A stretch of 64,000 bases of DNA from Candidatus Fraserbacteria bacterium (lineage in GTDB: Bacteria > Bipolaricaulota > Bipolaricaulia > RBG-16-55-9): NCBI GenBank assembly GCA_037442925.1, contig JBBIPG010000001.1, positions 1,368 to 65,367 on the forward strand. The letters run 5' to 3'. Both the position numbers and the translations under genes were made by a program. The number at the start of each line of letters is the position of its first letter. Position 1 is the first letter of the stretch. Of this stretch, positions 41,789 through 63,365 are shown piece by piece. The notes beneath the pieces are model-generated. The model made no database searches and was not told where the DNA came from. It saw only the letters and a list, made by a program, of their open reading frames with translations.

Positions 41789-42034
41789 TTGAAAGCGAGG
41801 TCGAGCGGAATGCGAACGTTTCTTCTGGTGCTCTTTGTGCTGGATGCGCTGGTGCTGATCGGCTTGATTCTCATGCAGATGAGCCGACACGCCGGCTTGG
41901 GCGGAGCCTTCGGAGGAGGAGGAAGCCACACGGTATTCGGACGCGAAGAGCAGAGCGATCCCAAGCGCACCGCCACAGCTTGGTTGGCAGCTCTCTTTAT
42001 GGTCTTGGGACTGGCTCTCTCTTTGGTGTCGTAA
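41789..42034 (+). CDS. secG: Preprotein translocase subunit SecG
   Basis: 81 aa, two TM helices, Gly-rich loop GLGGAFGGGGS. Confidence 0.8.
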   Translation: MKARSSGMRTFLLVLFVLDALVLIGLILMQMSRHAGLGGAFGGGGSHTVFGREEQSDPKRTATAWLAALFMVLGLALSLVS

Positions 42035-43030
42035 GTGGGGGCATCCATGGCCGCTGATACGCTCATCGAGGTACGAGACCTAAAGACGTACTTTTACACC
42101 GAAGATGGCGTCGTACGCGCAGTAGATGGCGTTTCGTTCTCCCTGGAACGCCAGGGTACTATAGGAGTCGTGGGGGAGTCGGGTTGCGGTAAAAGCCAGA
42201 CGGCGCTTTCCATTATGGGACTTGTGCCCATGCCTCCGGGCAAGATCGTCGGAGGCCAGATCATCTACCACCGCAACGGAACCCCCACGGATCTCACCAA
42301 GCTCGATGCCAAGGGCCGCGAGTATCGCTCGATCCGCGGCAACGAGATCGCCATGATCTTCCAGGAGCCGATGACCTCGCTCAACCCGGTCTACACCATC
42401 GGCAACCAGATCATGGAGGCGATCATGCTCCACCAGAAGAAGACCAAGCGGGACGCTCGAGAACTGGCCATCGCCATGCTCCGCCAAGTGGGGATTCCCC
42501 TGCCGGAGCAGCGCGTGGATGAGTATCCTCACCAACTCTCCGGTGGCATGCGACAGCGTGCCATGATCGCCATGGCGCTTTCTTGCAATCCCAATCTGCT
42601 CATCGCCGATGAGCCCACGACAGCTCTGGATGTGACCATTCAGGCCCAGATTCTCGAGCTCATCAAGACGCTGCAAGATCAGTATCACATGTCGCTCATG
42701 ATGATCACCCACAACTTAGGGGTGATCGCGGAAACGGCCGACGATGTGGTCGTCATGTACATGGGAAAGGTCGTCGAGCACGCTCCTGTAGATGCAGTCT
42801 TCCACAATCCAAAGCACCCCTACACCCAGGGGTTGATGGAGTCCATTCCGGCGCTCACGAAGAAGAAGGAGCGGCTCAAGCCCATCAAAGGGGTGGTGCC
42901 CGATCCCTACAACATACCCAAGGGGTGCCCCTTCCAGACCAGGTGTCCATACGTGATGGAGACCTGCAAGGAGATGCCTCCGTTGGAGGAGGTGGAGCCG
43001 GGTCACAAAGTCGCCTGCTGGCTATATTAG
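42035..43030 (+). CDS. oppD: Oligopeptide/dipeptide ABC transporter ATP-binding protein (OppD/DppD)
   Basis: Walker [18 protein letters not shown]-terminal oligopeptide ABC extension. Confidence 0.88.
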
Positions 43031-43054
43031 TGAGTACTGTGCGTGAAGGAGTGA

Positions 43055-44116
43055 ATGGAAGTGGCGAATGAGGAATTGCTTCTGGAAGTCAAGAAACTGA
43101 AGAAGTACTTTCCTGTGAAGCGTGGGATCTTTCGGCGGACGGTTGCCCATGTCAAGGCGGTTGATGGGATCGATTTCTTCATCAAGAAGGGAGAAACGCT
43201 GGGGTTGGTGGGCGAGTCGGGCTGTGGCAAGACGACGGCAGGTCGCACCATTCTGCGACTCATCGAACCCGATCCAGGCAGCCAGATCCTCTTCCACACG
43301 AATGGCCAGATGATCGATATTGCCAAACTGCGCCCCAGACAGCTCAAGCCCCTGCGCCGCCAGATGCAGATCATCTTCCAAGATCCTTACTCCAGCTTGA
43401 ACCCGCGTATGACCATTGGCGACATTGTGGGTGAACCTCTTGTGGTTCACGGCGTGGCCCGCGGCCGGGAGCGCGAAGCGCGCGTGCGCGAGTTGCTGGA
43501 AGCCGTCGGTCTCAACCCGGCCTACATGAAGCGCTACCCCCATGAGTTCAGTGGCGGTCAGCGGCAGAGAATCGGTATCGCCCGTGCGTTGGCTCTCGAC
43601 CCTCAGCTCATCATCTGTGACGAGCCGGTTTCGGCCTTGGACGTTTCAATTCAAGCCCAAGTGCTCAACTTGTTGGAAGACCTTCAGAAAGAGTTTGGAT
43701 TGACGTATCTGTTCATCGCTCACGACTTAAGCGTGGTGCGCCACATCAGTAGCCGGATCGCCGTGATGTACTTGGGCAAGATCGTGGAGATGGCCGAAAC
43801 GGAAGAGCTGTTCAAGTCACCCAAGCATCCCTATACGGAGGCGTTGCTGTCGGCAGTTCCGGTGCCCGACCCTGCGATCAAGATGGACCGCATCATTCTC
43901 GAAGGGGACGTGCCTAGCCCTGTGAATCCGCCCTCGGGATGCGTCTTCCATCCCCGATGTCCTTACTACGCCAAGAACAAATGGGAGCCCTGCAAGAACG
44001 ATGTGCCTCCTCTTGTGGATGTGACCGGGAATGGCCACTACTCCAGCTGCCACTTCGCCCGGGAGCTCCAGCTTCATGGCGTAGAGGAGATCGTGGAGCG
44101 ACGGTCGCGCTCATAA
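43055..44116 (+). CDS. oppF: Oligopeptide/dipeptide ABC transporter ATP-binding protein (OppF/DppF)
   Basis: [17 protein letters not shown]. Confidence 0.88.
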
Positions 44117-44120
44117 GTCA

Positions 44121-44714
44121 GTGAAGCTGCTGCTCGGGACAAAAAACGACAAGAAATTCCCGGAATTTTTCCAGATTCTCGCGAATCTCCCCGTGGAATG
44201 GCTGACGTATCATGAGTGCCCCTTCCGTGACGTAAGAGAAGACGGTCGCACGTTTAAAGAAAATGCACTCAAAAAGGCTCGCCAGATCAGTCAGGCGACA
44301 GGGCTGGCCGTCTTGGCTGAGGATGCCGGCTTGGAGGTGGAGGCATTAGGAGGCAAGCCAGGTGTGTACTCGGCTCGCTTTGCAGGAGTTGCTGGTCGAA
44401 GGGCGACGGACCAGCAGAACATCGAAAAGCTTCTCAAGTTGCTGAAGGGTGTGGAAGATAGGAGGGCCCACTTTGTTTGCGTGGCTGTACTGCATTTCCC
44501 AGACGGGAAAGAGCTGATTTCTGAAGGAGAACTCAAGGGGCACATCGCTCAGGAGGCCCGAGGAACGCACGGCTTCGGCTACGACCCCGTGTTTATTCCT
44601 GAGGGCTATGAGAAGACGCTGGCAGAGCTGGGACCGTCTGTGAAAGACGAGATCAGTCATCGCAAGAAAGCGCTGGAACGACTCAAAAAAGAGCTTCAAG
44701 CTAAGGTTATTTGA
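44121..44714 (+). CDS. rdgB: dITP/XTP pyrophosphatase (Ham1/RdgB)
   Basis: GTKNDKK..., FGYDPVF motifs. Confidence 0.9.
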   Translation: MKLLLGTKNDKKFPEFFQILANLPVEWLTYHECPFRDVREDGRTFKENALKKARQISQATGLAVLAEDAGLEVEALGGKPGVYSARFAGVAGRRATDQQNIEKLLKLLKGVEDRRAHFVCVAVLHFPDGKELISEGELKGHIAQEARGTHGFGYDPVFIPEGYEKTLAELGPSVKDEISHRKKALERLKKELQAKVI

Positions 44715-44770
44715 CAGCCTCCCGAAAGTAAGCTATTCTTGATCTGGTAATACTATTATGAAACGGTAAG

Positions 44771-45022
44771 GTGATGGCCATGATCGGTAGCAAGCTGACC
44801 TCCAAAGGCCAGACGACGATTCCTAAAGAGATTCGAGACTTTCTCGGCCTGCGAGCTGGAGATCGGGTGGTCTTCCTTCGCCGGGAGGGGGAAGTCATCC
44901 TACAAGCTGTGAAGCAGACGCTTTTGGACCTGCGTGGGAGCATCCAGATTCGTAGACAGCCGGAGGACTTCGATCAGATCCGCCGACAAGTCAAGCGCCG
45001 AATGACCCGCAAGGGCGCATGA
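44771..45022 (+). CDS. vapB: AbrB/MazE-fold antitoxin (VapB-like)
   Basis: KLTSKGQTTIPKEIRD swapped-hairpin motif. Stop immediately followed by the PIN gene's ATG (TGAATG). Confidence 0.7.
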   Translation: MMAMIGSKLTSKGQTTIPKEIRDFLGLRAGDRVVFLRREGEVILQAVKQTLLDLRGSIQIRRQPEDFDQIRRQVKRRMTRKGA

Positions 45023-45451
45023 ATGACTCCGTGCTTTGTCGATACCAACATCTTCTTGCGCTTTCTCACTAGTGATGTCCCTGCTCAGGCCGAGGCGGTT
45101 GCGCAGCTACTGCGGCGAGCAGCAGACGGGAAAGTCTCCCTAAAAACGAGCGCGCTTGTGATCGCAGAGCTTGTCTGGACGTTGGAATCCTATTATGAGC
45201 TGGATCGCGAGGAGATCAAGGCCAAAGTGTTGGCGATCTTGAATACGCCGGGGTTGGAGGTGGAGGATGGCGAGCTCATTGGAGAAACCATTCTGTTCTA
45301 TGCAGAGAAGAATGTGGATTTCATTGATGCGTACCACGCTTATTGGATGAAGAGCCATGGACTCTCTCGGGTGTATACCTTCGATACGAAACACTTTACG
45401 CGGGCTGAGGGGATCATACCTCTGGTGCCGGGAGCCAAGGAGCAGGCGTAA
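45023..45451 (+). CDS. vapC: PIN-domain toxin VapC
   Basis: FVDTNIFLRFL N-terminus with acidic PIN residues. Confidence 0.8.
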   Translation: MTPCFVDTNIFLRFLTSDVPAQAEAVAQLLRRAADGKVSLKTSALVIAELVWTLESYYELDREEIKAKVLAILNTPGLEVEDGELIGETILFYAEKNVDFIDAYHAYWMKSHGLSRVYTFDTKHFTRAEGIIPLVPGAKEQA

Positions 45452-45497
45452 CACAGAGATCTTCAAGCCAAGCTTTCCTAGGACCCCATCTACACTC

Positions 45498-45525
45498 TTG
45501 CCAGATATTAAGAGCGTGTTATCAT
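45498..45525 (+). promoter_or_regulatory. Putative promoter for the protease-WD40 gene
   Basis: TTGCCA - 16 nt - TATCAT. Followed by a 6-bp hairpin in the leader. Confidence 0.35.
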
Positions 45526-45589
45526 ATGGGAGTAGGCCCGGATGTGGGTTTGAAAGAGTTCACATCTAGGCCAGAAAAGGAGGGCGCCC

Positions 45590-47064
45590 ATGCTCAAGCG
45601 TGGTCTCAGGCTTGCAGCGATACTCGGTTTCTTGTCGGTGTTGATTCTATCGGGGAGTTTTCCTGGAGTGGGGGTAATCGCAAGCGCGCAGCAAGATATT
45701 TCAGCGATCGTCGAGCGTGTCAGGCCGGCGGTCGTCGAAATCGTGACGGATAAGGGGCAAGGGAGCGGATTTATCATCACATCGGATGGGGCAGTTCTCA
45801 CTGCTTACCACGTCGTGCGGGGAGCCAGCAGCATCGAAGCTCGGTTGCCGAATGGCTCAAGCTACAGAGCAACTGTAGGAAGTATGATGAGACGTATGAC
45901 CGTGGGGGCAGCGATCTGGCCTTGCTGAGGGTAAGCGCCAGCGGCCTTCCCACAGTGAGCTTAGGCGACTCGGATACCATCAGGATTGGGCACTCCATCA
46001 TCGTCATGGGCTATCCCTTGGGTATGGGTTTTCTTGTTGGCACCGGAAACATTAGTGGCAGTGTGGATTTTGGCGGTGGGCGCACAGTCTTTGTAATTGA
46101 TGCTGCCGTCAACCCAGGCAACAGCGGCGGACCGCTCCTCAATGATGAAGGTGATGTTATTGGAGTCGTCTTCGGCAGGGCCGATGTCCCCGGGATCAGG
46201 GTGGAGGGAATCAACTTCGCTACCCCAATAAACACTGCCAAGCGTGAGTTGAGACTAAACGTACCCACTGTGCACACCCTCACCCTCGGCCACAACAGCA
46301 CAGTCCTGTCAGTAGTGTTCAGCCCCGACGGACGGCTGCTCGCCTCCGGCTCCGTGTTCTGGGACAGTAGCACGTGGAGAGGAGAGATCAAGCTGTGGGA
46401 TGTAGCCACGGGTCAGGAGATCCGCACCATCAGCCCCAGCGGTAGCTGCACTATCGAGTGGGGGATCGCGTTCAGCCCTAACGGACAATTTCTCGCCTCC
46501 GGCTCCGGGGAAGGAGTGGTCTATTTGTGGGAGGTGGCCACGGGCCGGGAGGTCCGCACCTTAACTACTGGCAACACCTTCTCAGTCTGTTGGGTGGCCT
46601 TCAGCCCGGACGGGCGGTTACTCGCCGCCGCCACCGCCACTGACGACATCAAACTGTGGGAGGTGGCCACGGGTCAGGAGATCCGCACTCTCACTGGCCA
46701 CACCTACGGTGTCCATCAAGTAGCCTTCAGTCCTGACGGAAAGTTCCTCGCTTCCGGTGCTGGTGACTATACTATCAAGCTGTGGGAGGTGACCACGGGC
46801 AAAGAGGTGCACACACTCTCCGGTCACACTGGGTCGGTGTACTCCGTAGCCTTCAGCCCAGATGGGAAGCAGCTCGCCTCAGGTTCCTGGGACGAGACAA
46901 TCAAGCTGTGGGCTGTGGCCACAGGACAAGAAGTTTGCACCCTCACAGGGCACACCGACCAGGTCAATTCGGTAGCCTACAGTCCCGATGGGAGGCTCCT
47001 TGCCTCCGCTGGCTATATGGACCATACGATTAAGCTCTGGAACATCACTGCACTGTCAGGGTGA
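45590..47064 (+). pseudogene. Secreted trypsin-like (S1/HtrA-type) serine protease fused to WD40 repeats, interrupted by a -1 frameshift near 45880
   Basis: ORF 45590..45928 carries signal peptide and the catalytic His (LTAYHVV). The next frame (45922..47064) continues with DLALLRV (Asp) and GNSGGPL (Ser), then 6-7 WD repeats. The two frames join at ...RATVG|KYDETYD. Confidence 0.7.
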
Positions 47065-47115
47065 ATGATCGGGATGATTGCGGGCAACAACACCTCAGGC
47101 AATCAGAACGGTATG

Positions 47116-47240
47116 GGCAACCCCTGCAATCACCCCTGGAACCGACCCGACGTGCCTGATGGGCAAGTGTGTCTGCCATAGATGCAAGGAAGCAACTGGC
47201 GGTCAGCAATCCGCTGTCAGCAGAGACGAAAGACTCAAAG
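47116..47240. repeat. Copy A of about 125-bp direct repeat flanking the DUF433/DUF5615 pair
   Basis: About 80% identical to 47938..48062, read by eye. Core: GTGTGTCTGCCATAGATGCAAGGAAGCAACTGGCGGTCAGCAATC. Confidence 0.6.
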
Positions 47241-47280
47241 CTGATGGCTGAAAGCTGACTGCCAATTCGCTACAATCAAC

Positions 47281-47547
47281 ATGGTGATACCCATGAAGAT
47301 CGCAGAACGCATTGAAGTCGACCATAACATCTGCCACGGCAAGCCCCGCATCGCCGGCACCCGCATCATGGTCGAACAGGTGCTGGATCTCCTAGCCGCT
47401 GGTATCCCCATTGAGCAGATCACTTCCGAGGAATACTTCCCGGATCTCACCAAAGAGGACGTACTGGCCTGCGTGGGCTTCGCCAATGCGTTCCTTAAGG
47501 GCGAAGAGTTCCATATCTACGAACCGGAGACCCCAAGCCCAGCGTGA
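47281..47547 (+). CDS. DUF433 protein (putative antitoxin)
   Basis: 88 aa, ...HGKPRIAGTRIMVEQVLDLLAAG typical of DUF433. Confidence 0.65.
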   Translation: MVIPMKIAERIEVDHNICHGKPRIAGTRIMVEQVLDLLAAGIPIEQITSEEYFPDLTKEDVLACVGFANAFLKGEEFHIYEPETPSPA

Positions 47548-47900
47548 AGATTCTGGCTGATCACTGCGTCTATGGCAAGACCGTTCAACTTCTTCGAGCA
47601 CAAGGCCATGAGGCCATCACGCTCCAGGAGTTGGGGCAGGCCAAGGTCGCTGACCATCAAGTGCTGATGCTGGCTCAGTCACTGGATGCCGTGCTGGTCA
47701 CAAACGACAAGGGATTTGGCAATATCCTGACCTATCCCCCGGAGCGCTATGGAGGCATCCTTGTACTGCGGGTGACCGCCACGAGCCAGCAACGAGTTCA
47801 TCAGATTCTATTGGATTTCTTAAAGTCACATGATCGGGAGTCGTTGCGCAAAGCGCTTGTGGTCATTGATGCCCGGACCTATCGGATCAGAAGAAGCTAG
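47544..47900 (+). CDS. DUF5615 (PIN-like) putative toxin
   Basis: 118 aa, MKILADHCV...LVTNDKGFG. 4-nt overlap with DUF433 gene. Confidence 0.6.
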   Translation: MKILADHCVYGKTVQLLRAQGHEAITLQELGQAKVADHQVLMLAQSLDAVLVTNDKGFGNILTYPPERYGGILVLRVTATSQQRVHQILLDFLKSHDRESLRKALVVIDARTYRIRRS

Positions 47901-47937
47901 CTGGCCAACGATTCCCCGTGGCTCGAAGAATCTTATG

Positions 47938-48062
47938 GACAACCTTGGCAATCACCCCGGAACCGGCCCAGCGTGCTCGATGGGTAGGTGTGTTTGCCAT
48001 AGACGCAAGGAAGCAACTAGCGGTCAGCAATCAGCTCTCAGCTAAAGGCAAGAGCTGAAGGC
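47938..48062. repeat. Copy B of about 125-bp direct repeat
   Basis: See copy A. Confidence 0.6.
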
Positions 48063-48156
48063 CACTCCCAACATTCAGGCAGATTAAATCGGGCGGTCTA
48101 GTTGCCTGAGTACCGGCCTACTGTCTAAGATGTAAAAATCGACAAATGGAGCGGTC

Positions 48157-48429
48157 ATGGCCGATGGCGATGTGGACCTTCTGGAGCGAATGCGCCGCAC
48201 ACGCAGCGGCTGGGGCGAGGATGACTTGGACAGACTTTATCGTAGCTTCAGCTTCCGCGAGATCACACGCCCCAGGGCCCCTCACCGTGTCTACGTCCAC
48301 CCTGCTCACCCTGACCTACGAGCTACTGTCGCGCGCAAAAAATCTCTGCCCAAGGGCTATCCGACCACGGCCGTACGCATCATTGATCAACTCTTGGAGA
48401 GACAGAAAGCGAAAGGGGGAAGCCCATGA
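48157..48429 (+). CDS. hicA: HicA-like mRNA interferase toxin
   Basis: 90 aa. SGWGEDDLDRLYRSFSF...HRVYVHPAHPDLRATVARKK fits HicA dsRBD-like pattern. Confidence 0.55.
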   Translation: MADGDVDLLERMRRTRSGWGEDDLDRLYRSFSFREITRPRAPHRVYVHPAHPDLRATVARKKSLPKGYPTTAVRIIDQLLERQKAKGGSP

Positions 48430-48665
48430 AGAAAGACGTAGATTATTATGACCGATTGCCTTGGAGGGTGCAGATCGAACCCGAGCGTCAAGACGACGGG
48501 ACGATCGTTTACATTGCCTCGCATCCGGAGTTTGAGGGCGTGCTGGGCAGTGGAACCACACCCGAAGAGGCGTTGGTCGATTTGCGCAAAGCACGCCGCG
48601 CGATGATCGAGGCATTGCTGTCGGAGGGTTACTCCGTGCCAGAACCAGCAGCCGTAGTGGTTTAG
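48426..48665 (+). CDS. hicB: HicB-like antitoxin (UPF0150)
   Basis: 79 aa. DGTIVYIASHPEFEGVLGSGTTPEEALVDLRKA. 4-nt overlap with hicA. Confidence 0.55.
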   Translation: MKKDVDYYDRLPWRVQIEPERQDDGTIVYIASHPEFEGVLGSGTTPEEALVDLRKARRAMIEALLSEGYSVPEPAAVVV

Positions 48666-48703
48666 CTTGGCTCTTCCTTGCTTGTGCCTGACAGCGTTGT
48701 GGA

Positions 48704-48964
48704 GTGCCAGGGAATGCGGATGAAGAACGACGCAACGAGGGGCTCAGCATCGCAGAGGTCGAACAAGCTTTGCTCAATGGACGCATTCTGGAGGATTATC
48801 CTCAAGATCCTCGCGGACCTTCGTGCCTGGTTTATGGGGATGCCGGAGGGCAGCCCATTCACGTGGTCTGCGGACGTAACCGCTCAGGATGGCTCGTGCT
48901 GATCATTGTGTATGTTCCGACAATGCCGAAATGGAAAAGCCAGACAGAAAGGAGTCAGCCATGA
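48704..48964 (+). CDS. DUF4258 putative toxin
   Basis: About 86 aa. ...ILEDYPQDPRGPSCLVYG...PIHVVCG...LIIVYVPT pattern. Start uncertain. Confidence 0.5.
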   Translation: MPGNADEERRNEGLSIAEVEQALLNGRILEDYPQDPRGPSCLVYGDAGGQPIHVVCGRNRSGWLVLIIVYVPTMPKWKSQTERSQP

Positions 48965-49107
48965 AGCCTTATGATGACTGCATCCATTGCGGCGGCCGGG
49001 TGGACGAACGCCTGGAGTGCATCGACTATCGCTACCACGGACAGCTCTTCATCCTGGGGCCGCGCCTCTCCAAGCTCGGGCTTTACATGCTGAGCGATCT
49101 GTTCTAG
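48961..49107 (+). CDS. YgiT/MqsA-type zinc-finger antitoxin-like protein
   Basis: 48 aa. MKPYDDCIHCGG...ECIDYRY. Overlaps DUF4258 stop (ATGA). Confidence 0.45.
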   Translation: MKPYDDCIHCGGRVDERLECIDYRYHGQLFILGPRLSKLGLYMLSDLF

Positions 49108-49152
49108 AATGTGCAAGGTATCCAAGAAGACAGCTAAGCTCAGGATTGGCGT

Positions 49153-49500
49153 ATGCTTCGCGAAGGAGGCGAGTGGATGATTTCTTTTGACGATTTTCTC
49201 AAGCTGGACATTCGCATGGCAGAGATCGCGGCAGCAGAGCGCGTCCCCGGCACTGACAAACTCCTTAAGTTGACGGTGAATTTGGGAAGCGAAACCCGGC
49301 AACTTGTGGCAGGTATTGCGAAATCTTACGCACCGGAGAGTCTTGTTGGAAAGAAAATACCCATCGTGACCAATCTCGAACCTAAGACCATTCGAGGCAT
49401 CGAAAGCCAAGGGATGATCCTCTGCCCTTCCACGTCCGAGGGAAAGCCGGTCTTGCTCCTGCCCGACCGGGATGTGCCACTGGGAGCCAAAGTGAAGTAA
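49153..49500 (+). CDS. csaA: tRNA-binding protein CsaA (EMAP/MetRS C-terminal-like)
   Basis: 115 aa, LDIRMAEIAAAERVPGTDKLLKLTV. Confidence 0.8.
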   Translation: MLREGGEWMISFDDFLKLDIRMAEIAAAERVPGTDKLLKLTVNLGSETRQLVAGIAKSYAPESLVGKKIPIVTNLEPKTIRGIESQGMILCPSTSEGKPVLLLPDRDVPLGAKVK

Positions 49501-49506
49501 TTGCGT

Positions 49507-51618
49507 TCACGGAGCTTGGCCTGCCTCGATCGATTCGGCAACGAGTTCGGCAATGTCCTTGTCTTGTAGGGGGAGACTCTTGTTCTTGATGCCATCCTCG
49601 AGCATGATCATACAAAAGGGGCAGGCCGTTGCCACGATCTCCGGCTTGACTTCCATCGCTTGCATGAGCCGTCGGTCGTTCACCCGTTTTTCGGGCTCCT
49701 CCTCTACCCACATGAGTCCTCCGCCCGCACCGCAACACATACCCTTCTCACGGGAGCGTTTCATCTCTACTCGCCGGGTGCCTGGAATGGCATCCAACGT
49801 CGCTCGCGGTGCATCATAGACCTTGTTGTAGCGACCCAAGTAGCAAGAATCGTGGTACGTGATCGTCTGTCGTACCTCTTTTGTGAGTCTGACTCTGCCC
49901 TCTTTGACAAGCTGGGCAATGAGCTGTGAATGATGTACAACTTCGTAATGACCGCCGAAATCTGGATATTCGTTCTGGAAGGTGTTGTAGCAATGTGGAC
50001 AGACGGTCAAGATCTTCTTGACGCCGTAGGTGTTGAATCTCTCGATGTTCTGTTGCGCCTGCATCTGGAAGAGATACTCATGACCGATGCGCCGCGCCGG
50101 ATCGCCGGTACAGGTCTCTTCTTCACCCAGAATCGCGAAGGTGATACCCGCGGCGCGCAAGATTTGAACAAGGCTTCGGGCGATCTTGTGGTTCCTCGGC
50201 TCAAAGGCCGTTGCGCATCCCACCCAGAAGAGATACTCCACTTCCGTGGCCGGATTCGCGCCTGTCGGCTGTAGCTGGCTCATGACCGGGACATTGAGCC
50301 CCTTTGCCCACTCCAGTCGCACCTCGGCGGTCATGTTCCAGGGATTGCCTCGCCCATCGAAACCCTTGAAAACATCCGTGAAGTGCGACGGGTATTTGTC
50401 CTTGATCATGACTTCGTTTCGTCGCATGGCCAAAATCTTATCCAGCTGATTGATCTGAATGGGACAGGCAGCCACACAAGCCATGCAGGTCGTGCAAGCC
50501 CAAATCTCTTCCGGTTTCACAGCCAGTGGCACGACGTCTTGCGGCTCCTTGGCTTTGCCAAAGAGCGGGACTTCTTCATAGGCGTGATCCCTCAGTTCGA
50601 GGATGATCTCCTTGGGCGAGAGGACTTTGCCGGAGATGTGTGCGGGACACTCCGCTTCGCAACGCCCACACTCCGTGCAGCTGTAGAGATCGAGGATGTC
50701 CCGCCAACTGAGGTCTTTGATCGTTTGAAGACCCAATACTTCGTTGCGCTCGAACGCACCTTCCACATCCAGCTTCGTCATGCGCCCCTGGGGAGCTGTC
50801 TTGTAGAAGATCACGTTAGGCAAGCTTGTGATGATATGAAAGTGCTTCGAGATAGGAAGATAATTCAAGAAGACGAGGATCAAGAAGAGATGGAACCACC
50901 AAGAGGCAAAATGCAGGGAGCTGAGCGCCGCTTCGTTCAGCCCAACTTGGGTGAGAAGCCATGCAGCCGTACCGCTGGCAAACGCCCAAGCACCTCGTGG
51001 ATTGCCTTCCAACGCAAAGAGCGCTCCATCGAGCAGCAGATCTGTGACCATCAGCATGAAAATCAGCAACAGAATGAAGATGGCTCCTCCGGAGAGCGTA
51101 AGTCGCGCCTTTTTCGCGATCAGCCTCTGATAGAGCCAATAGAGGCACCCCAGCATCACGAGCAGAGAGAAAGCGTCTTTCGCAAAGAAGTAGAGATTGC
51201 CCCATACGTTCACGGGAATATCGAGGCTTGGAGCGAAACCGGAAATGAATAGACTGACCGTACGCACGGCGTAGATGAGAAATCCCCAGAAGATGAAGGC
51301 GTGCATCAAGCCTGCGAATAGATCCTTGAAGAGACCTCGTTGCGCGAAGAAGTAGAGGAATGTGTTGACAAGGCGCTTGCCCCATTCGTGAAAGCGATCC
51401 TCTGGGCCTCCCCGGGCAAGCAGTTGCCATCGCCTCCACATGACGTAGGAGAAGAGTGCAAGGCTCACAAACAGCATCGCTGCCAGCCAAATACGACCGC
51501 TCAATCCAAGAAAGTCGAAATCTGTTGGGTGCATGAGTGGACTCCCCTCTACAACACTCTGACAATAGCCGAAGCGAAAGATCTCTGTCAAATGGAAGCG
51601 GGATAAAGCAGTTGACAA
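49507..51618 (-). CDS. Fe-S oxidoreductase: NarI-like cytochrome-b membrane domain fused to HdrD-like domain (2x4Fe-4S plus two CCG motifs)
   Basis: N-terminal about 6 TM. CTECGRCEAECP and CTTCMACVAACP ferredoxin motifs. CPHC.../CCGAGGG.../CPFC Cys-rich CCG domains. Confidence 0.75.
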   Translation of the reverse strand: MSTALSRFHLTEIFRFGYCQSVVEGSPLMHPTDFDFLGLSGRIWLAAMLFVSLALFSYVMWRRWQLLARGGPEDRFHEWGKRLVNTFLYFFAQRGLFKDLFAGLMHAFIFWGFLIYAVRTVSLFISGFAPSLDIPVNVWGNLYFFAKDAFSLLVMLGCLYWLYQRLIAKKARLTLSGGAIFILLLIFMLMVTDLLLDGALFALEGNPRGAWAFASGTAAWLLTQVGLNEAALSSLHFASWWFHLFLILVFLNYLPISKHFHIITSLPNVIFYKTAPQGRMTKLDVEGAFERNEVLGLQTIKDLSWRDILDLYSCTECGRCEAECPAHISGKVLSPKEIILELRDHAYEEVPLFGKAKEPQDVVPLAVKPEEIWACTTCMACVAACPIQINQLDKILAMRRNEVMIKDKYPSHFTDVFKGFDGRGNPWNMTAEVRLEWAKGLNVPVMSQLQPTGANPATEVEYLFWVGCATAFEPRNHKIARSLVQILRAAGITFAILGEEETCTGDPARRIGHEYLFQMQAQQNIERFNTYGVKKILTVCPHCYNTFQNEYPDFGGHYEVVHHSQLIAQLVKEGRVRLTKEVRQTITYHDSCYLGRYNKVYDAPRATLDAIPGTRRVEMKRSREKGMCCGAGGGLMWVEEEPEKRVNDRRLMQAMEVKPEIVATACPFCMIMLEDGIKNKSLPLQDKDIAELVAESIEAGQAP

Positions 51619-51661
51619 CTCTCACGAGAGTCCGCTATGATCTCTGAGAGGTTAGAGGGAT

Positions 51662-52312
51662 ATGCCTAGAGCAACCGTTGACTCTCATCATATCCGAGTC
51701 CTCTACGATCAGTTGGCTTCGGGCTACGATCGCCGTACTGCACTGAGCGATTTCTTATTCTTGAAGCGTTTTCGCCGACAGCTTCTGGCCTCGGCTCATG
51801 GGCGAGTTCTGGAGATCGGCATCGGAACGGGCCGAAATCTCCCCTATTATCCACGCGATTGTGACATCACGGGCGTGGATATCTCTCCCAAAATGCTTGA
51901 AGCAGCAGCACATCGAGCAGCCCAGATGGGTCTTAAGGTGAAGCTCTTGCAGATGGATGGCCATGAACTCAGCTTCCCCAGTTCTAGTTTCGACACGGTA
52001 GTGAGCAGCTTGTCGCTCTGCACCGTGATCGATCCGGTCAAAGCCCTGGCAGAGATGTCTCGGGTGAGCGTTCCCAATGGACGCATCTTGCTGCTCGAGC
52101 ACGGTCGAAGCCGATACCGCTGGGTCTGCCGCCTTCTGGATTTATTGGCGCCCCACCAGATTGGCAAGTACGGCTGCCATCCGAATCGGAATATCTTGGC
52201 GCTGGTACAAGCCGCAGATCTCGTGGTATTACAGATCGAGCGCCACTTTCTGGGTGGCATCCTGCAAGTGATCCGTGCGCGACCTCCGCGCTCTGGCACG
52301 ATCTCCAAATGA
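51662..52312 (+). CDS. Class I SAM-dependent methyltransferase
   Basis: VLEIGIGTGRNL motif I. Confidence 0.75.
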   Translation: MPRATVDSHHIRVLYDQLASGYDRRTALSDFLFLKRFRRQLLASAHGRVLEIGIGTGRNLPYYPRDCDITGVDISPKMLEAAAHRAAQMGLKVKLLQMDGHELSFPSSSFDTVVSSLSLCTVIDPVKALAEMSRVSVPNGRILLLEHGRSRYRWVCRLLDLLAPHQIGKYGCHPNRNILALVQAADLVVLQIERHFLGGILQVIRARPPRSGTISK

Positions 52313-52339
52313 GACCCCAGTGCGCAGAATGGTCTTGAG

Positions 52340-55063
52340 CTAGCTTGTCGTTGAGAAGCGCGGCTCGAGCATAAGATAGACCTGAGGCTGTGCTGTGCCG
52401 ATGCCGTAAGCAAAACCCACTCGAAGCGAGCCAGTCATGAGCCCGTATCCCAGCACGACCTGGAGTTGGAGTTCTGCTCCCAAAGCGACCCGACTTTGAT
52501 CGAGTTCTAGAGTCGATCCGACCGTTCCGGCATCCACAAATAGGCTGCCGCGAAGATCGTCAAGAAATAGGGGTGAAATGGAGTCCCCGCAGCACGCCCA
52601 CTCGATGGCCCATACAGGGAATCGATATTCTGCGGTCATCGAAACAAGCTCGGATCCTACGGAGATGTTCGCAAAGCCGCGCAGCGGATACTTCCCGCTG
52701 ACACCTCCCAGACGGAACTCCTCGCGATCGCTCCAGGCGGCACCGGCTCGGAAGAGAAACTCGTGTGGGCCGACGGGATTCTCAAACGGAAGCTGAAACT
52801 CTTCACGCCATTCCAGAGTCAACCGACGCGCCAGTCCCTGCAAGGGCCATGTCAGACTGCCCTGGATCGCCAGTGAGGAGCGGCGCTGGAACAGGTCGAA
52901 CCCTTGCGCATCCATGAGTCGTTCCGTGAGAGATACCTCGGCCGCGCCGCGCTCTTGCCCTAGAGCCAGTGTCAAGACACGCTCACGGTTCAAGCTCTCT
53001 CCCCAGGGGAATTCCAGTGCGAACTCCTGACGCTCTTGTACAGGGCTCCCCTGCACACGGAAGTGAAGGGCGGGAAAGAACTGGTTATTGATGTAGCCAA
53101 ACTCGTAGAAAAACTCGAACGTGTCGGTACTCAATCCCACGTTGAGGTCGTAGCGATGTCGATGAAGCGGATCTTCGTTTTGCGTGAAGAACCCCACTTC
53201 CGTCATTCCGACAAAGGGCACCCAGAAGGTCGGGATCAGTGCAGGCACTGGATCGTAGATCACCGGTCGCAGCTTTTGAACTTCCTTAGCAGAGAGTGCA
53301 CTGGCCATCTGAGGCGTCTTCACGCTGGCTGAGTTGCTCGAAGGCGGCTTGAGACTCCAACGGGCGGGGTCATACTCCGCACGCTGTAGGCTGAATCCGT
53401 TTTCCGTGTAGCCTACGATGAGGAGGTGCTGTCCATCGGACGAGACGGCAGGGTCAAAACTGCCGCTGAGGGAACGGGTGACACGGAAGAGCTGGCGATC
53501 TCCCAGGCGAAGAGCGTAGACATCAAAAATGCCCTCACGGTTGGACGAGAAGAGAATGAAACGGCCATCGGGTGAGAAGACGGGATCGAAGTCGAGAGCT
53601 GGGTCTTGGGTCAGAGGAATCGGTTCCCCTCCTTGGCTATTCATGAGATATATATCTTGCCCCTGCTCACTCTTCCAGAGGGAGAGCGCGATGAGTTTTC
53701 CATCCGGAGAGATGCTCATGGAGTGGACGCGTTGGTCCCTATCGAATTCCGTGAGTACTTGACGGCTCTTAGTAAGAAGATCGAAGACGACCAACGCACT
53801 TGTTCCTGCGGTGCCGTTGCGAGCGAAGAGCAAACGGCGGCCATCTAAGAAGGATTCTACCTGGTAGACTCTCTCGCCATACGTGAGACGCGCCTCGCGC
53901 CGACTTTCAAGATCATACAGGTAGAGATCATAGACGCGAGAGCCATGGGTGATGCCGAGCTTAGGATAAGTCAGTGTGATCGCATCCAGCCAGGCTGGCG
54001 GACCACATTCGCAAGCCAGCAGTGGCTGATCGTCTGTCCCGTTGGGCCGGATCCAGCGTAAGCCGGAGCTACGCTGTGGATCTTGGTGATAGTAGGCAAT
54101 GGCATCACCCAACGGGGATTCCGCGGGCCAGACACTCCAGAAATCCAGGGAGCCTAGAGGGGTTCGCGCGGTTACCCCGCCTTGGCTCTGGATCTCGTCT
54201 TGAAGCCGGGCCGAGCGCTCCTCTGCCCAGAACCGAAAGTCCTGATAGGTTTTTTCAGAGGACTGACCCGTCGCGATACTCAATGGACCTGAGAGGAAAG
54301 AACCCAGGAGATTGGTCGCATAGGCTCGGCTGATCTCTTGAATCGCTTCATGACCGTATGTTTCATCCAGATACGCCAGCAGCACGGACCCAACGAAGTA
54401 GGCTTGTACGTCAGCGGAAGGCCAAACCTTCTTCGTGTACGGGGAACTCAATTGCGCCAGAGTAGGCAAGCGCTCTGATTCAGCCATGGCCCGGAGGCTC
54501 ATCTCGGCAAGACCCGGATCGCGATGAGTCCGGTAGATGAGACCCTCTCGCCACCAGAGCGGCTTCACGAGACCGGGGGCAACGAGACTCCCGAAGATCG
54601 CCCGCAGATCCGCGGTGATTCCTTCCACTCGCGTCGCGTCAACGATACGTCCGTATTCAGAAAAGATGATCTCCTCAAGCCACGATTCCCTCGGGGAGCT
54701 CCACAGTTCAGTGGACCACCCATACGGGTGATCGATCACCATGACGTTGTGGGGAAAGATGCTCCGGACGACTGTTGTGACATCGCTACGATCCGTCAGC
54801 ACGATATAGGTCTTTGCCGGCTCGGAATACTGGAGCTTCTGAGCCCAGTACTCATGAGCTCTTTCCGCAAGGAGAGCGGCTTCCTTCGCTAATTCGAAGA
54901 GATCATCCGGGAAGAGGATCTCAAAGTGCTCGGTCTTAAGAGCCTGCCAGTTGCGAGCCGAAGCCTGCGTTCCCCAGGGCAAAGGAGTAGGTGCTCCGTC
55001 GAGAGTGATGAACCATATTGCGACAGCTGCGAGTACCCAGATCAACCACGACCTCACGTACAC
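52340..55063 (-). CDS. Large envelope protein: N-terminal domain, TolB-like PD40 beta-propeller repeats, C-terminal Omp85-family beta-barrel
   Basis: 907 aa. N-terminal signal/TM. PD40-type repeats (SPDGKLIAL..., FSPDGRFILFSS...). C-terminal YPLRGF ... LFVDAGTVG motifs typical of Omp85/BamA barrels. Confidence 0.55.
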   Translation of the reverse strand: MYVRSWLIWVLAAVAIWFITLDGAPTPLPWGTQASARNWQALKTEHFEILFPDDLFELAKEAALLAERAHEYWAQKLQYSEPAKTYIVLTDRSDVTTVVRSIFPHNVMVIDHPYGWSTELWSSPRESWLEEIIFSEYGRIVDATRVEGITADLRAIFGSLVAPGLVKPLWWREGLIYRTHRDPGLAEMSLRAMAESERLPTLAQLSSPYTKKVWPSADVQAYFVGSVLLAYLDETYGHEAIQEISRAYATNLLGSFLSGPLSIATGQSSEKTYQDFRFWAEERSARLQDEIQSQGGVTARTPLGSLDFWSVWPAESPLGDAIAYYHQDPQRSSGLRWIRPNGTDDQPLLACECGPPAWLDAITLTYPKLGITHGSRVYDLYLYDLESRREARLTYGERVYQVESFLDGRRLLFARNGTAGTSALVVFDLLTKSRQVLTEFDRDQRVHSMSISPDGKLIALSLWKSEQGQDIYLMNSQGGEPIPLTQDPALDFDPVFSPDGRFILFSSNREGIFDVYALRLGDRQLFRVTRSLSGSFDPAVSSDGQHLLIVGYTENGFSLQRAEYDPARWSLKPPSSNSASVKTPQMASALSAKEVQKLRPVIYDPVPALIPTFWVPFVGMTEVGFFTQNEDPLHRHRYDLNVGLSTDTFEFFYEFGYINNQFFPALHFRVQGSPVQERQEFALEFPWGESLNRERVLTLALGQERGAAEVSLTERLMDAQGFDLFQRRSSLAIQGSLTWPLQGLARRLTLEWREEFQLPFENPVGPHEFLFRAGAAWSDREEFRLGGVSGKYPLRGFANISVGSELVSMTAEYRFPVWAIEWACCGDSISPLFLDDLRGSLFVDAGTVGSTLELDQSRVALGAELQLQVVLGYGLMTGSLRVGFAYGIGTAQPQVYLMLEPRFSTTS

Positions 55064-55094
55064 GTACGTTCCTCTCTCCTTAAGGTTCGGATCT

Positions 55095-56144
55095 TCAGGG
55101 AAGCACCCCAGCCTCCACGGTCAATACGGGAACGCCGTCGCGGGTGACGGCCAGACTGATATTCACATTTAGGTCCGGGAAGCTAAGCGAAGTCCCCCAG
55201 CCGAAGAGCACTTCGTTCGACTCTTCTCCATCGCCCAATACCATGCCACCCTCGAAGAAGACCGACGAGAGCAGGCGGAGTCGCACGGGAATCCATCCGA
55301 GCCTCTCTCCCAGAATGTCCCTGAGATCCAACTGGAAGATCTGAGCTGAAAGCACTTCAAAGCCCTGTTCGAGCGAGAACAAGAAGAATCGATGGCCCGC
55401 AAACGAAGCGGGATAGCTGCGAAGCCCCAGATTGAAGCGAAAGCCTGGCAGGTCGGCGGGGTTATCTAACTCTCCCAGGCGAAACTCCAACGTGGTCTCA
55501 TCGACCCACAATCTGGTCGAGCTAAAGAAAGTCTGAAAGGAGCTTTCGAGGTCGGTCAGAGGCTGACCGAACAGAAACTCTCCGCGAGTCTCCAGAGTGA
55601 TGCCGAGCGGCAGTGGCCAGTGAAGGAAACCGCTCAGGTGAAAGTATCGCACATCCGGACCTTCCATCTCGCCTTCCCCTGGCCAGAGGCGCCCCAAGAA
55701 TCCCGTTCCTTGGAGCTGGCTTTGCTGGAGAACTGCGCCAAGAAGTCCCTCTCCTTCACTCCCCAGCAGTCGATTGAGTGCCAGCAGGTCCAGCGACGCA
55801 TGAATACCCTGTTCGCCTTGACGACCGAATACCAAGCTGCTCGGCCAGTCTCCATAGGAGATCCTCAGAGCGTTCTGGTATTGCAGGCCCGTTCGGAAGC
55901 GTCCCATCTGGCTCAACACGCCATAGGCTCCGCCTGCTTCCAGTTCCAACCCCAAGCCTTCCAGAGTTAATGCAAAATCCAGTCCCAGCAGCAGGCCGTC
56001 GCGATGGCTCTCCGCGATCACAGGGCGCAGATGGGGAATCGCACCGATGGGTTGCTGCTCCTGGGACCAACCACTAAACCCGCTCAAAGCGACGAGCCCC
56101 AGAGTGAGCCATGCCCAACTGTATCTCCATCCTCGATCACTCAT
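55095..56144 (-). CDS. Secreted hypothetical protein, possibly outer-membrane beta-barrel
   Basis: 349 aa, signal peptide, alternating hydrophobic pattern. Start overlaps ABC-F stop. Confidence 0.45.
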   Translation of the reverse strand: MSDRGWRYSWAWLTLGLVALSGFSGWSQEQQPIGAIPHLRPVIAESHRDGLLLGLDFALTLEGLGLELEAGGAYGVLSQMGRFRTGLQYQNALRISYGDWPSSLVFGRQGEQGIHASLDLLALNRLLGSEGEGLLGAVLQQSQLQGTGFLGRLWPGEGEMEGPDVRYFHLSGFLHWPLPLGITLETRGEFLFGQPLTDLESSFQTFFSSTRLWVDETTLEFRLGELDNPADLPGFRFNLGLRSYPASFAGHRFFLFSLEQGFEVLSAQIFQLDLRDILGERLGWIPVRLRLLSSVFFEGGMVLGDGEESNEVLFGWGTSLSFPDLNVNISLAVTRDGVPVLTVEAGVLP

Positions 56145-58095: not shown

Positions 58096-58256
58096 GATGA
58101 ATCATTTCACAGATGAGCTGGGACTAGCTGCAACCGGATTGTATGGGAATTTTGACGGATCGGCAACAGCGTTACCCTTCCGGGAGCGATGTCCACCCTG
58201 AGAAAGCCCGTCGGACTTGCCGCGGAATTGAGCCGCACCCTATACTGAGATTACCC

Positions 58257-58319
58257 ATGAAGATCACTCACATTCATGCGCGCGAGATTCTCGATTCTCG
58301 AGGGGAAGATCCGCGATGA
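58257..58319 (+). other. 20-codon upstream ORF identical in sequence to an enolase N-terminus (eno remnant), stop overlapping the ftsB ATG
   Basis: atg aag atc act cac att cat gcg cgc gag att ctc gat tct cga ggg ... tga translates MKITHIHAREILDSRGEDPR*. Enolase N-termini read ..I.AREILDSRGNPTVEV. ATGA overlap with the ftsB start. Confidence 0.5.
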
Positions 58320-63350: not shown

Positions 63351-63365
63351 GAAGAGGAGGCACCG

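What the first reader, a model, noticed from the sequence alone, without database searches (positions are those of the whole stretch)
47116..48062. 125-bp direct repeats bracketing the DUF433/DUF5615 cassette, with a conserved Cys-containing mini-frame
Two roughly 125-bp segments (47116-47240 and 47938-48062), about 80% identical, flank exactly one TA pair. This is the footprint expected of cassette insertion by site-specific or homologous recombination, or duplication of an intergenic element.

Within the repeat, one frame encodes MGKCVCHRCKEATGGQQSAV... (copy A) versus MGRCVCHRRKEATSGQQSAL (copy B). Several of the nucleotide differences are synonymous in that frame (GGC/GGT, GTC/GTT, TCC/TCA). 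This hints at a selected small peptide or a structured RNA rather than neutral sequence.
Basis: seen in the sequence. Interest (0 to 1): 0.55.

Follow-up and report, generated by a model that had tools for sequence, protein, structure and literature searches.

The report
Gene-end relics flanking a toxin-antitoxin cassette
The two ~120-bp repeats are leftover 3' ends of a multi-copy beta-helix protein gene (plus a little downstream spacer) that sit next to toxin-antitoxin cassettes in Bipolaricaulota genomes; they are not a small-peptide gene or a structured RNA.

Summary
The repeat is real: 47105-47222 vs 47927-48043, about 84% identical with one indel, two copies only in the window, bracketing one DUF433/DUF5615 pair. 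The interpretation needs replacing. This is the conserved C-terminus of a large family of right-handed beta-helix proteins (Pfam Beta_helix/NosD). Copy A differs from 10 intact genes by 120 synonymous vs 41 non-synonymous codons. Copy B has a frameshift and an in-frame stop. There is no Rfam hit and no shared fold. Synonymous sites of the invariant DGQVCLP codons vary freely, so the constraint is on the protein, not on a DNA site or RNA. The bracketing idea partly survives. Tails precede 10 of 12 DUF433/DUF5615 cassettes. Tail pairs also bracket DUF4258/DUF2283 and HEPN-type pairs in other genomes. TA modules are enriched downstream of tails (about 16/59 vs 1/24 upstream). A near-identical relative lacks the whole 4.4-kb island. 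Most likely these are passive gene-end relics, duplicated by homologous recombination or by tandem cassette turnover.

The parts
47065..47181 (+). Relic A: the last ~33-38 codons plus the TAG stop of a right-handed beta-helix protein gene (MIGMIAGNNTSGNQNGMGNPCNHPWNRPDVPDGQVCLP*). The frame is intact. It starts directly after, and in frame with, the TGA of the WD40 gene (47062-47064).
   Evidence: Translation. tblastn 84% to the family tail, E 5e-21. Alignment A2 with 10 family proteins; every invariant column is kept, and only the nearly invariant Gly of GNPG is changed (G->C). 120 synonymous vs 41 non-synonymous codon differences against 10 intact genes.
47182..47245 (+). Spacer A: sequence just after the parent gene's stop, duplicated in copy B. 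It is shared at 82-89% only with the L002 cassette and is rich in TCAGC/GCTGA half-sites.
47248..47276 (+). Promoter-like site (CTGAAA-17-TACAAT) of the DUF433/DUF5615 operon. It lies outside the duplicated segment. It is conserved upstream of DUF433 in L002, L003a and L005, and survives as a solo copy in the 'empty' locus L070.
   Evidence: Consensus scan. Alignment A5. Function is inferred, not shown.
47281..47547 (+). DUF433 protein (putative antitoxin).
   Evidence: Pfam PF04255, E 7e-21.
47544..47900 (+). DUF5615 PIN-like protein (putative toxin). Its start overlaps the DUF433 stop (GTGA).
   Evidence: Pfam PF18480, E 4e-22, and PIN_10. Homologues at 75-92% identity sit in several unrelated contexts.
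47904..48002 (+). Relic B: a decayed copy of the same gene end. It has a 1-nt deletion between 47958 and 47959, an in-frame TAG at 47985-47987 in place of the invariant Gln, broken GNP and Trp invariants, and the terminal TAG at 48000-48002.
   Evidence: tblastn gives NDSPWLEESYGQPWQSPRNRPSVLDG*VCLP. Alignments. The orthologous copy in L005 still has the frame and the Gln.
48003..48062 (+). Spacer B: a duplicate of spacer A. Homology to the cassette's 5' flank stops about 25-30 nt before the point where the promoter would begin.
48157..48665 (+). Context: the next two-gene cassette (90 aa with no Pfam hit, plus a 79-aa HicB-like protein). It occupies the position where a second DUF433 operon would follow relic B.
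44698..49129 (.). Context: the whole variable TA island between Ham1 and tRNA_bind. It holds MazE-like/PIN, trypsin-WD40, relic A, DUF433/DUF5615, relic B, a HicB-like pair and a DUF4258 pair. It is absent from the close relative L070 and shorter in L005.
   Evidence: blastn of L070 vs the window aligns 41797-44697 (97%) and 49130-64000 (99%). L005 synteny. Pfam.

Best explanation
Each repeat copy is a pseudogene fragment. It consists of the last ~25-38 codons and the stop codon of a right-handed parallel beta-helix protein gene, followed by ~40-65 nt of the spacer that lies between such a gene and a DUF433/DUF5615 operon. The gene family is multi-copy in Candidatus Bipolaricaulota (Acetothermia) and always ends in ...GNPGxHPWNRPDVPDGQVCLP-COOH.

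The similarity between the two copies is inherited coding conservation, not selection on a mini-peptide, an RNA or a DNA site. Copy A is a young relic, or was still protein-constrained until recently. Copy B is older and decaying.

Shown:
- the origin of the repeat in the beta-helix gene end;
- the lack of support for a peptide, an RNA or a DNA site;
- the recurrent linkage 'tail, spacer, promoter, DUF433/DUF5615' in several unrelated genomic contexts;
- recurrent tail-TA-tail arrangements with three different TA families;
- presence/absence polymorphism of the island.

Inferred (about 45% for this step): the pair arose because the highly conserved gene end acts as portable homology. Either a tail-TA unit was inserted by homologous (Campbell-type or unequal) recombination into a resident tail, or two tail-TA units stood in tandem and the second operon was replaced by the HicB-like cassette. 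Loss of the second operon would be tolerated because the first copy still supplies antitoxin. The repeats now do nothing actively. At most they offer ~120 bp of 84% homology for deletion or excision of the cassette.
For: Origin of the repeat:
- Copy A translates to the family tail. It matches the C-terminus of the intact 570-aa NosD/Beta_helix gene in L003.
- Nine database proteins and 59 metagenome loci carry the same tail. Parent proteins hit PF13229 and PF05048.
- In the true frame, copy A differs from 10 intact genes by 120 synonymous and 41 non-synonymous codons. Intact vs intact gives 531:209.
- Copy B has a frameshift and a nonsense codon. A vs B in the true frame gives 2 synonymous and 8 non-synonymous.

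Protein-level constraint, not DNA-level:
- DGQVCLP is invariant in 41 intact genes, yet codons vary: GAT 22/GAC 19, CAG 22/CAA 19, TGC 21/TGT 20, and all three stop codons are used.

The mini-frame is a by-product. There is no Rfam family, no tRNA and no shared fold.

Linkage to TA cassettes:
- A tail lies upstream of DUF433 in 10 of 12 cassettes and on both sides in 4.
- Double tails bracket DUF4258/DUF2283 pairs (L020, L040) and a HEPN-type pair (L058).
- TA families occur within 1 kb downstream of about 16 of 59 tails, against 1 of 24 upstream windows (Fisher p 0.014-0.037).

Common origin of A and B: they are each other's closest relatives (83%) and share a post-stop spacer seen elsewhere only in L002.

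Turnover of the island: it is absent in L070, whose flanks are 97-99% identical, and a solo cassette promoter is left behind. L005 shows an intermediate state.

No recombinase or transposase gene lies from 41.8 kb to 64 kb of the window, judged from the L070 gene list and Pfam.

Published work describes compact TA islets without mobility genes, integration by homologous recombination, and a TA flanked by duplicated res sites (PMC13617665).
Against: - No allele with a single tail in place of the cassette was found, and no circular junction, so the recombination step is inferred only.
- Paired tails are never near-identical (79-88%). No recent event is documented, and independent decay of separate paralogues is not excluded.
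- Copy A keeps an open frame and every invariant residue (only the nearly invariant Gly of GNPG is changed), and it is in frame behind the WD40 gene's TGA. It might still be expressed as a C-terminal extension and not be a dead relic.
- The 'empty' relative L070 keeps the promoter, not a tail. Simple tail x tail excision does not predict that.
- The TA enrichment rests on small numbers and a crude ORF call, and some loci were ascertained through DUF5615 itself.
- Only one contig of the source genome could be examined.
Confidence: 0.78

Rival explanations
1. The tails are recognition sites of a site-specific recombination system (integron-attC-like, Xer/dif-like, or att sites of an element that targets the 3' end of the beta-helix genes). 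TA cassettes would be inserted there by a recombinase encoded elsewhere, and the insertion would duplicate the site.
For: Cassettes of three TA families are bracketed by directly repeated tails. All relics keep the extreme 3' end. The tail contains a small dyad, ATGGGCAG-GTGTGT-CTGCCAT (sequence). GGG and CCG codons are somewhat over-used at two positions of the tail.
Against: Synonymous positions of the last eight codons and the stop codon vary freely among 41 intact genes. The 5' limits of relics vary from 13 to 38 codons. Paired tails are 79-88% identical. I saw no R''/R' (RYYYAAC/GTTRRRY) motifs when reading the sequence, and no long imperfect hairpin on either strand. No integrase gene lies in 22 kb around the island. 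The core pattern is absent from viral, plasmid, genome and metagenome collections.
Confidence: 0.1
2. Independent decay. Each relic is what remains of a separate full-length beta-helix paralogue that once stood next to a TA operon. Deletions removed the gene bodies but could not extend into the addictive TA operon, so only the gene end next to the operon survives. No cassette movement through the tails is involved.
For: Intact gene followed by TA is common (L003b, L012, L042). Paralogues cluster: there are two tails on several contigs, and L008 has a truncated and an intact gene 2.4 kb apart. The 5' limits of relics vary. Paired tails are no more than 88% identical.
Against: The same relic, spacer and cassette unit occurs in unrelated contexts that have no beta-helix gene nearby (L002, L003a, L006, the window), so the relic travels with the cassette. 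A and B share a specific spacer found otherwise only in L002. Relic B is followed by a different cassette, not by a DUF433 operon.
Confidence: 0.2
3. One reading: the repeat encodes a selected Cys-rich small peptide (MGKCVCHRCKEATGGQQSAV...).
For: Both copies have the ATG and 20 similar codons. Three differences are synonymous in that frame.
Against: The frame gives 5 synonymous vs 7 non-synonymous, no better than other frames. Reading the sequence, I see no Shine-Dalgarno-like sequence before the ATG. The ATG is ACG in 27 of 62 homologous tails. The peptide is conserved only where it overlaps DGQVCLP of the parent frame, and lengths range from 9 to 73 aa. The parent frame explains all the conservation.
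Confidence: 0.02
4. The repeat is a structured non-coding RNA or a cis-regulatory leader of TA operons.
For: Both copies lie upstream of two-gene cassettes. Copy B folds somewhat better than shuffles as DNA (z -2.7 and -2.3). The spacer has TCAGC/GCTGA half-palindromes that could be antitoxin operators.
Against: No Rfam match. RNA z-scores run from +0.8 to -1.0, and the predicted structures differ between the copies. The conserved part is coding-derived, with third-position variation. The promoter-like site lies downstream of the repeat, so most of the repeat would not be in the operon's transcript.
Confidence: 0.03
5. Copy A is not a relic but a functional C-terminal module of the trypsin-WD40 protein. 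It would be reached by read-through of the TGA at 47062-47064, or it was cut off very recently.
For: It is in frame and directly adjacent. Every invariant residue is kept; only the nearly invariant Gly of GNPG is changed. A trypsin plus beta-helix plus tail fusion ORF exists in L058.
Against: The frame match has a 1-in-3 chance expectation. The trypsin-WD40 gene itself carries a frameshift. No WD40-tail protein was found in any other locus.
Confidence: 0.07

Closest known systems
Gene remnants and duplicated sites at chromosomal toxin-antitoxin islets (for example Photorhabdus, PMC13617665)
   Same: Small TA-only islands without mobility genes. High turnover between close relatives. A TA flanked by two copies of a short sequence while a relative has a single copy or none. 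Proposed spread by homologous recombination.
   Different: Here the flanking repeat is the 3' end of one particular multi-copy protein gene family, not a transposon res site. The same kind of relic brackets cassettes of several TA families across an uncultured phylum.
Integron gene cassettes with attC sites (for example the ~125-bp Vibrio cholerae repeats, which also bracket TA cassettes)
   Same: Short cassettes, often TA pairs, in one orientation, each separated by a direct repeat of about 60-130 bp.
   Different: No attC hairpin was found, I saw no R''/R' core motifs when reading the sequence, and there is no intI nearby. The repeat is coding-derived, with protein-level rather than structure-level conservation. 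The cassette has its own promoter-like site.
att-site duplications of integrative elements that target the 3' end of a gene (tRNA, tmRNA or protein-coding)
   Same: Direct repeats made of a gene's 3' end flank the inserted DNA. The upstream gene can stay intact (L020, L040).
   Different: No integrase. Repeat lengths and 5' limits vary. The repeats are 12-21% diverged. In the window neither copy is attached to an intact gene.
MITE, REP or IS termini
   Same: Short repeated intergenic DNA of about 100-130 bp.
   Different: No terminal inverted repeats. Only two copies in 64 kb. The core is absent from the genome, metagenome, viral and plasmid collections. A clear coding origin.

Membership tests
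C-terminal end of the right-handed beta-helix (PF13229/PF05048) protein family ending in PDGQVCLP | Translation matches the conserved tail GNNTxGNQxGMGNPGxHPWNRPDVPDGQVCLP followed by a stop | tested here: met
   Copy A: 84% to the family tail, E 5e-21, every invariant column kept and only the nearly invariant Gly of GNPG changed. Copy B: recognisable (E 1e-4), with a frameshift and an in-frame stop.
C-terminal end of the right-handed beta-helix (PF13229/PF05048) protein family ending in PDGQVCLP | Substitution pattern of a coding sequence in that frame (excess of synonymous changes against intact members) | tested here: met
   Copy A vs 10 intact genes: 120 synonymous, 41 non-synonymous. Intact members carry Beta_helix/NosD domains.
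C-terminal end of the right-handed beta-helix (PF13229/PF05048) protein family ending in PDGQVCLP | Attached to a beta-helix domain (an intact gene, not a fragment) | tested here: not met
   The open frame is only 38 codons for A and 33 for B. No beta-helix body is present anywhere in the window. Hence relics, not genes.
Integron attC site | Imperfect inverted repeat forming a long hairpin on one strand, with R''(RYYYAAC)/R'(GTTRRRY) cores | tested here: not met
   No inverted repeat of 20 nt or more. DNA folds differ between the copies, with z from -2.7 to +0.3. I saw no core motifs when reading the sequence; no dedicated attC model was available.
Integron attC site | Integron integrase and attI nearby | tested here: not met
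   No recombinase among the genes from 41.8 to 64 kb. The rest of the genome could not be examined.
   ATG in 35 of 62 copies. Lengths 9-73 aa. No similarity after the parent gene's stop. 5 synonymous vs 7 non-synonymous.
Known structured RNA family (Rfam 15) | Covariance-model match at or near the gathering score | tested here: not met
   0 matches at gathering score. The best E-values are 1.2 and 2.8, for unrelated families.
MITE / IS terminus | Terminal inverted repeats, target-site duplication, many dispersed copies | tested here: not met
   No inverted repeats. Two copies in the window. No matches in the public collections.
Type II TA module DUF433/DUF5615 (the bracketed cassette) | Two small overlapping genes: an antitoxin-like DUF433 and a PIN-like DUF5615 nuclease | tested here: met
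   Pfam E 7e-21 and 4e-22, with a GTGA overlap. Toxicity and neutralisation were not tested.

The most novel reading that the evidence does not exclude
In Bipolaricaulota, the invariant 3' end of a multi-copy beta-helix gene family may serve as a set of landing pads for toxin-antitoxin cassettes of many families. Tail-TA units would excise and re-insert through the conserved tails. This could happen by recombinase-independent homologous exchange or by an undiscovered site-specific system acting at the stop-proximal sequence. The result would be integron-like arrays (gene-tail, TA, tail, TA) without an integron. That would be a concrete mechanism for how TA modules move without mobile-element genes.
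Probability: 0.25. Interest if true: 0.6.

Novelty: new member of a known kind. Interest (0 to 1): 0.33.

Why it matters
For this finding, the result removes a false lead: there is no new micro-protein and no new RNA here. It also shows how out-of-frame reading of a strongly conserved coding end can look like a conserved mini-ORF. More broadly, how chromosomal TA modules spread without transposases or integrases is an open question. This lineage offers a tractable case. One gene family's conserved end is repeatedly found on one or both sides of TA cassettes of at least three families. One locus also shows three states (empty, short, long) among close relatives. As a by-product, the invariant PDGQVCLP C-terminus on dozens of beta-helix paralogues, for which no curated model exists, may be a sorting or processing signal of an uncultured phylum.

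Tried and rejected
- Structured RNA: Rfam at gathering score on the whole window and at E<=10 on 46950-48250. Single-strand folds of both copies, both strands, as DNA and RNA. Nothing shared or significant.
- tRNA/tmRNA-derived att site: ARAGORN found none in the window.
- Widespread repeat element: exact-pattern scans with a 34-nt, a 24-nt and a 21-nt core found nothing in genome contigs (twice), metagenome contigs and viral contigs. blastn of the whole unit against plasmids found nothing. The tail protein in viral contigs found nothing.
- More diverged copies in the window: blastn with word size 7 and nhmmer --max found none.
- Mini-ORF: six-frame synonymous/non-synonymous counts and a family-wide test; rejected.
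- DNA-level recombination site: codon-usage test on 41 intact tails; rejected as a strict site.
- Local-duplication test: partner tails rank 1-8 of about 71 in four loci, but at only 79-88% identity. This does not decide between mechanisms.
- WD40-tail fusion proteins elsewhere: none found.
- Literature: no paper holds both DUF433 and DUF5615.
- Exact-protein look-ups for strain variants through tRNA_bind returned only the same short contig. The ABC-F route succeeded.
Full report
1. THE OBSERVATION

The two segments are real direct repeats.
- The repeat finder reports 47134-47221 vs 47955-48042 (85% over 88 nt) and 47105-47147 vs 47927-47969 (72%).
- A gapped alignment gives about 84% identity with one 1-nt indel. 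blastn gives E = 2.7e-29.
- A 23-nt core occurs exactly twice, against zero in 100 shuffles.
- Sensitive searches (blastn with word size 7, nhmmer --max) find no third copy in the 64 kb.
- The repeats flank one gene pair: DUF433 (47281-47547) and a DUF5615 PIN-like protein (47544-47900).

2. WHAT IT IS NOT

- Rfam has no match at gathering score in the whole window. At E<=10 on the region it gives only chance-level hits (E 1.2 and 2.8).
- There is no tRNA or tmRNA.
- Folding both copies on both strands, as DNA or RNA, gives z-scores between -2.7 and +0.8, and the two copies fold differently. No inverted repeat of 20 nt or more exists. So there is no attC-like hairpin and no shared RNA structure.
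That is no better than other frames (4:8, 4:6).
- Exact scans for the conserved core found nothing in the genome, metagenome and viral collections, and blastn against plasmids found nothing. It is not a widespread repeat element.

3. WHAT IT IS

I fetched the genomic contexts of close homologues of the DUF5615 protein (75-92% identity) and searched them with a profile of the repeat. The repeat turned up next to DUF433/DUF5615 cassettes in unrelated contexts.

Aligning these copies showed that window copy A and one copy in L003 share homology further upstream, with mostly third-position differences. In L003 that stretch is the end of a called 570-aa gene with NosD/Beta_helix domains.

The two translations are:
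- Window 47065-47181: MIGMIAGNNTSGNQNGMGNPCNHPWNRPDVPDGQVCLP*.
- L003 gene end...MLEDISGNNTTGNQNGMGNPGNHYWNRPDIPDGQVCLP*.

Evidence that this is a real protein family:
- A protein search with the L003 C-terminus found nine proteins with the same tail. One is named by NCBI as a right-handed parallel beta-helix repeat protein of Candidatus Acetothermia.
- A metagenome scan returned 59 more loci.
- Intact members are 300-1270 aa and hit Pfam Beta_helix and NosD. No Pfam or NCBIfam model covers the tail.

Evidence that copy A is coding-derived and copy B is decaying:
- In the true frame, copy A differs from ten intact genes by 120 synonymous and 41 non-synonymous codons. Against L021 the count is 16 to 1. 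That is the signature of a sequence that was a functional coding end until recently.
- Copy B (47904-48002) has a 1-nt deletion, an in-frame TAG in place of the invariant Gln, and broken invariant residues.
- Its orthologue in L005 still has the frame and the Gln, so part of the decay is recent.

The 40-65 nt after the stop (47182-47245 and 48003-48062) are also duplicated. This spacer is shared at 82-89% only with the L002 cassette.

4. WHY THE MINI-FRAME LOOKED CONSERVED

Among 62 non-identical tails it is ATG in 35 and ACG in 27. The string MG(R/K)(C/S)(V/A)C is simply DGQVCLP read one base out of frame. Beyond the parent gene's stop the peptides share nothing, and their lengths range from 9 to 73 aa.

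5. IS THE TAIL A DNA SITE?

In 41 non-identical intact genes the residues DGQVCLP never change, but their codons do:
- GAT 22 / GAC 19
- GGG 26 / GGC 9 / GGA 6
- CAG 22 / CAA 19
- TGC 21 / TGT 20
- CTG 20 / TTG 15
- stop TGA 21 / TAG 10 / TAA 10

The constraint is therefore on the peptide. Three further points argue against a sequence-specific recombination site, though they do not exclude one. Relic 5' limits vary from 13 to 38 codons before the stop. Paired tails are 79-88% identical and never near-identical. No recombinase gene lies between 41.8 and 64 kb of the window.

6. WHAT SURVIVES OF THE CASSETTE IDEA

Among 12 DUF433/DUF5615 cassettes, 10 have a tail directly upstream, either an intact gene or a relic. 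Four have a tail on both sides (window, L006, L008, L019), and L005 has one only downstream.

Double tails also bracket other TA families:
- DUF4258-like/DUF2283 pairs in L020 and L040.
- A HEPN-type pair in L058. In L040 and L058 the second tail is followed by a VapB-like/PIN-like pair; PIN was confirmed by Pfam for L040 and judged by similarity for L058.

Within 1 kb downstream of 59 non-redundant tails, about 16-17 carry a type II TA module (DUF433/DUF5615, HicAB, MazEF, VapBC, DUF4258/DUF2283, HEPN). In the 24 windows upstream of intact genes there is one hit, and that one lies between two tails. Fisher's one-sided p is 0.014-0.037, depending on how conservatively the downstream count is taken. 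The numbers are small and the ORF call is crude.

7. THE LOCUS IS POLYMORPHIC

The window's organism belongs to Candidatus Bipolaricaulota/Acetothermia, judged from the named homologues of its ABC-F protein. Three states of the same locus were found:
- L070 (GCA_037444325.1): flanks 97% and 99% identical, but Ham1 and tRNA_bind are adjacent. The 4.4-kb island (window 44698-49129) is replaced by 92 nt. Those 92 nt contain a solo copy of the spacer and promoter-like sequence that precedes DUF433 elsewhere (GCTGAGTGCTGAAAGCTGAgTGCCAAgTCGCTACAAT).
- L005, a more distant syntenic relative: only an 85-aa ORF, the DUF433/DUF5615 pair and the 5' half of relic B.
- The window: four TA pairs plus the trypsin-WD40 gene.

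The cassette is more similar between the window and L005 (92.8%) than the housekeeping flanks are (85-88%).

8. MECHANISM

Shown: the repeats are gene-end relics plus cassette spacer. The unit 'relic, spacer, promoter-like site, DUF433/DUF5615' recurs in unrelated contexts. Tail-TA-tail arrangements recur. The island comes and goes.

Inferred: the conserved gene end is the most similar DNA stretch among dozens of paralogues, and it provides homology for recombination. There are two routes to the present arrangement.
- A tail-TA unit inserted by homologous recombination into a resident tail.
- Two units stood in tandem and the second operon was replaced by the HicB-like cassette. Losing one of two identical addictive modules is harmless.

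I give this step about 45%. The alternative is that each relic is the independent remainder of a separate paralogue, protected from deletion by its addictive neighbour (about 20%). A true site-specific system gets about 10%.

The promoter-like site (CTGAAA-17-TACAAT, 47248-47276) lies outside the duplicated segment. The repeat is therefore not the operon's promoter.

9. COMPARISON WITH KNOWN SYSTEMS

- The closest description is of compact chromosomal TA islets with high turnover, spread by homologous recombination, including one TA flanked by duplicated res sites (PMC13617665).
- Integron arrays and 3'-end-targeting integrative elements look similar in layout, but their defining features were tested here and not met (see the membership table).
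- No paper in the library mentions DUF433 together with DUF5615.

10. VERDICT

The small-peptide and RNA reading is rejected. The recombination-footprint reading is partly supported, in a modified form. The repeat itself is ordinary: pseudogene fragments. The recurrent association of one gene family's end with TA cassettes is a modestly interesting lead. Interest is 0.33, and I class it as a new member of a known kind.

Noticed in passing
window 45590-47064: The Trypsin_2 + WD40 gene is split into two ORFs (45590-45928 and 45922-47064) by a frameshift near 45880-45925. It is either a pseudogene or an assembly error.
   Followed up: partly
window 47062-47181; L058 2796-3638: Relic A's 38-codon ORF begins directly after, and in frame with, the WD40 gene's TGA. 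L058 carries an intact ORF that fuses a trypsin domain, a short beta-helix stretch and the same tail. The tail may be a C-terminal module shared by several protein types. Read-through was not tested.
   Followed up: partly
L003, L008-L069 (tails listed): A multi-copy beta-helix protein family (300-1270 aa) in Bipolaricaulota ends in the invariant ...GNPGxHPWNRPDVPDGQVCLP-COOH. No Pfam or NCBIfam model covers this tail. It could be a sorting, anchoring or processing signal.
   Followed up: partly
window 44698-49129; L070 18920-19040; L005 2388-3580: The Ham1/tRNA_bind locus has three states. L070 (97-99% identical flanks) is empty and keeps 92 nt with a solo cassette promoter. L005 has one TA pair. 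The window has four TA pairs plus the trypsin-WD40 gene.
   Followed up: yes
window 47247-47993 vs L005 2826-3572: The DUF433/DUF5615 cassette is 92.8% identical between the two genomes, while the flanking housekeeping genes are 85-88% identical. This hints at more recent exchange of the cassette.
   Followed up: no
window 47200-47276; L002, L003a, L005, L070 (alignment A5): The spacer is rich in TCAGC/GCTGA half-palindromes. A conserved block, GCTGAAAGCTGAcTGCCAAtTCGCTACAAT, precedes DUF433. These are candidates for the operator and promoter of the operon.
   Followed up: partly
window 44771-45451, 48157-48665, 48704-49107: Other cassettes of the island: a MazE-like antitoxin with a PIN toxin; a 90-aa protein with no family hit next to a HicB-like protein; and a DUF4258 protein with a 48-aa (or 72-aa) partner that has no family hit.
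   Followed up: partly
window 49082-49110: A promoter-like site (TTTACA-17-TAGAAT, 10 of 12 matches) lies upstream of tRNA_bind and overlaps the end of the last cassette ORF. A similar TAGAAT follows the Ham1 stop in L070.
   Followed up: no
L003 10514-12357 and L008 5001-9008: A shared arrangement (beta-helix gene, DUF433/DUF5615, PHP-domain gene, CoA ligase) suggests an ancestral 'gene end then TA' locus. In L003 the second toxin has degenerated to 31 aa.
   Followed up: no
loci (counts): An L-PSP (RidA-like) endoribonuclease gene lies within 1 kb downstream of seven tails. It is probably a conserved neighbour of one orthologous subgroup.
   Followed up: no
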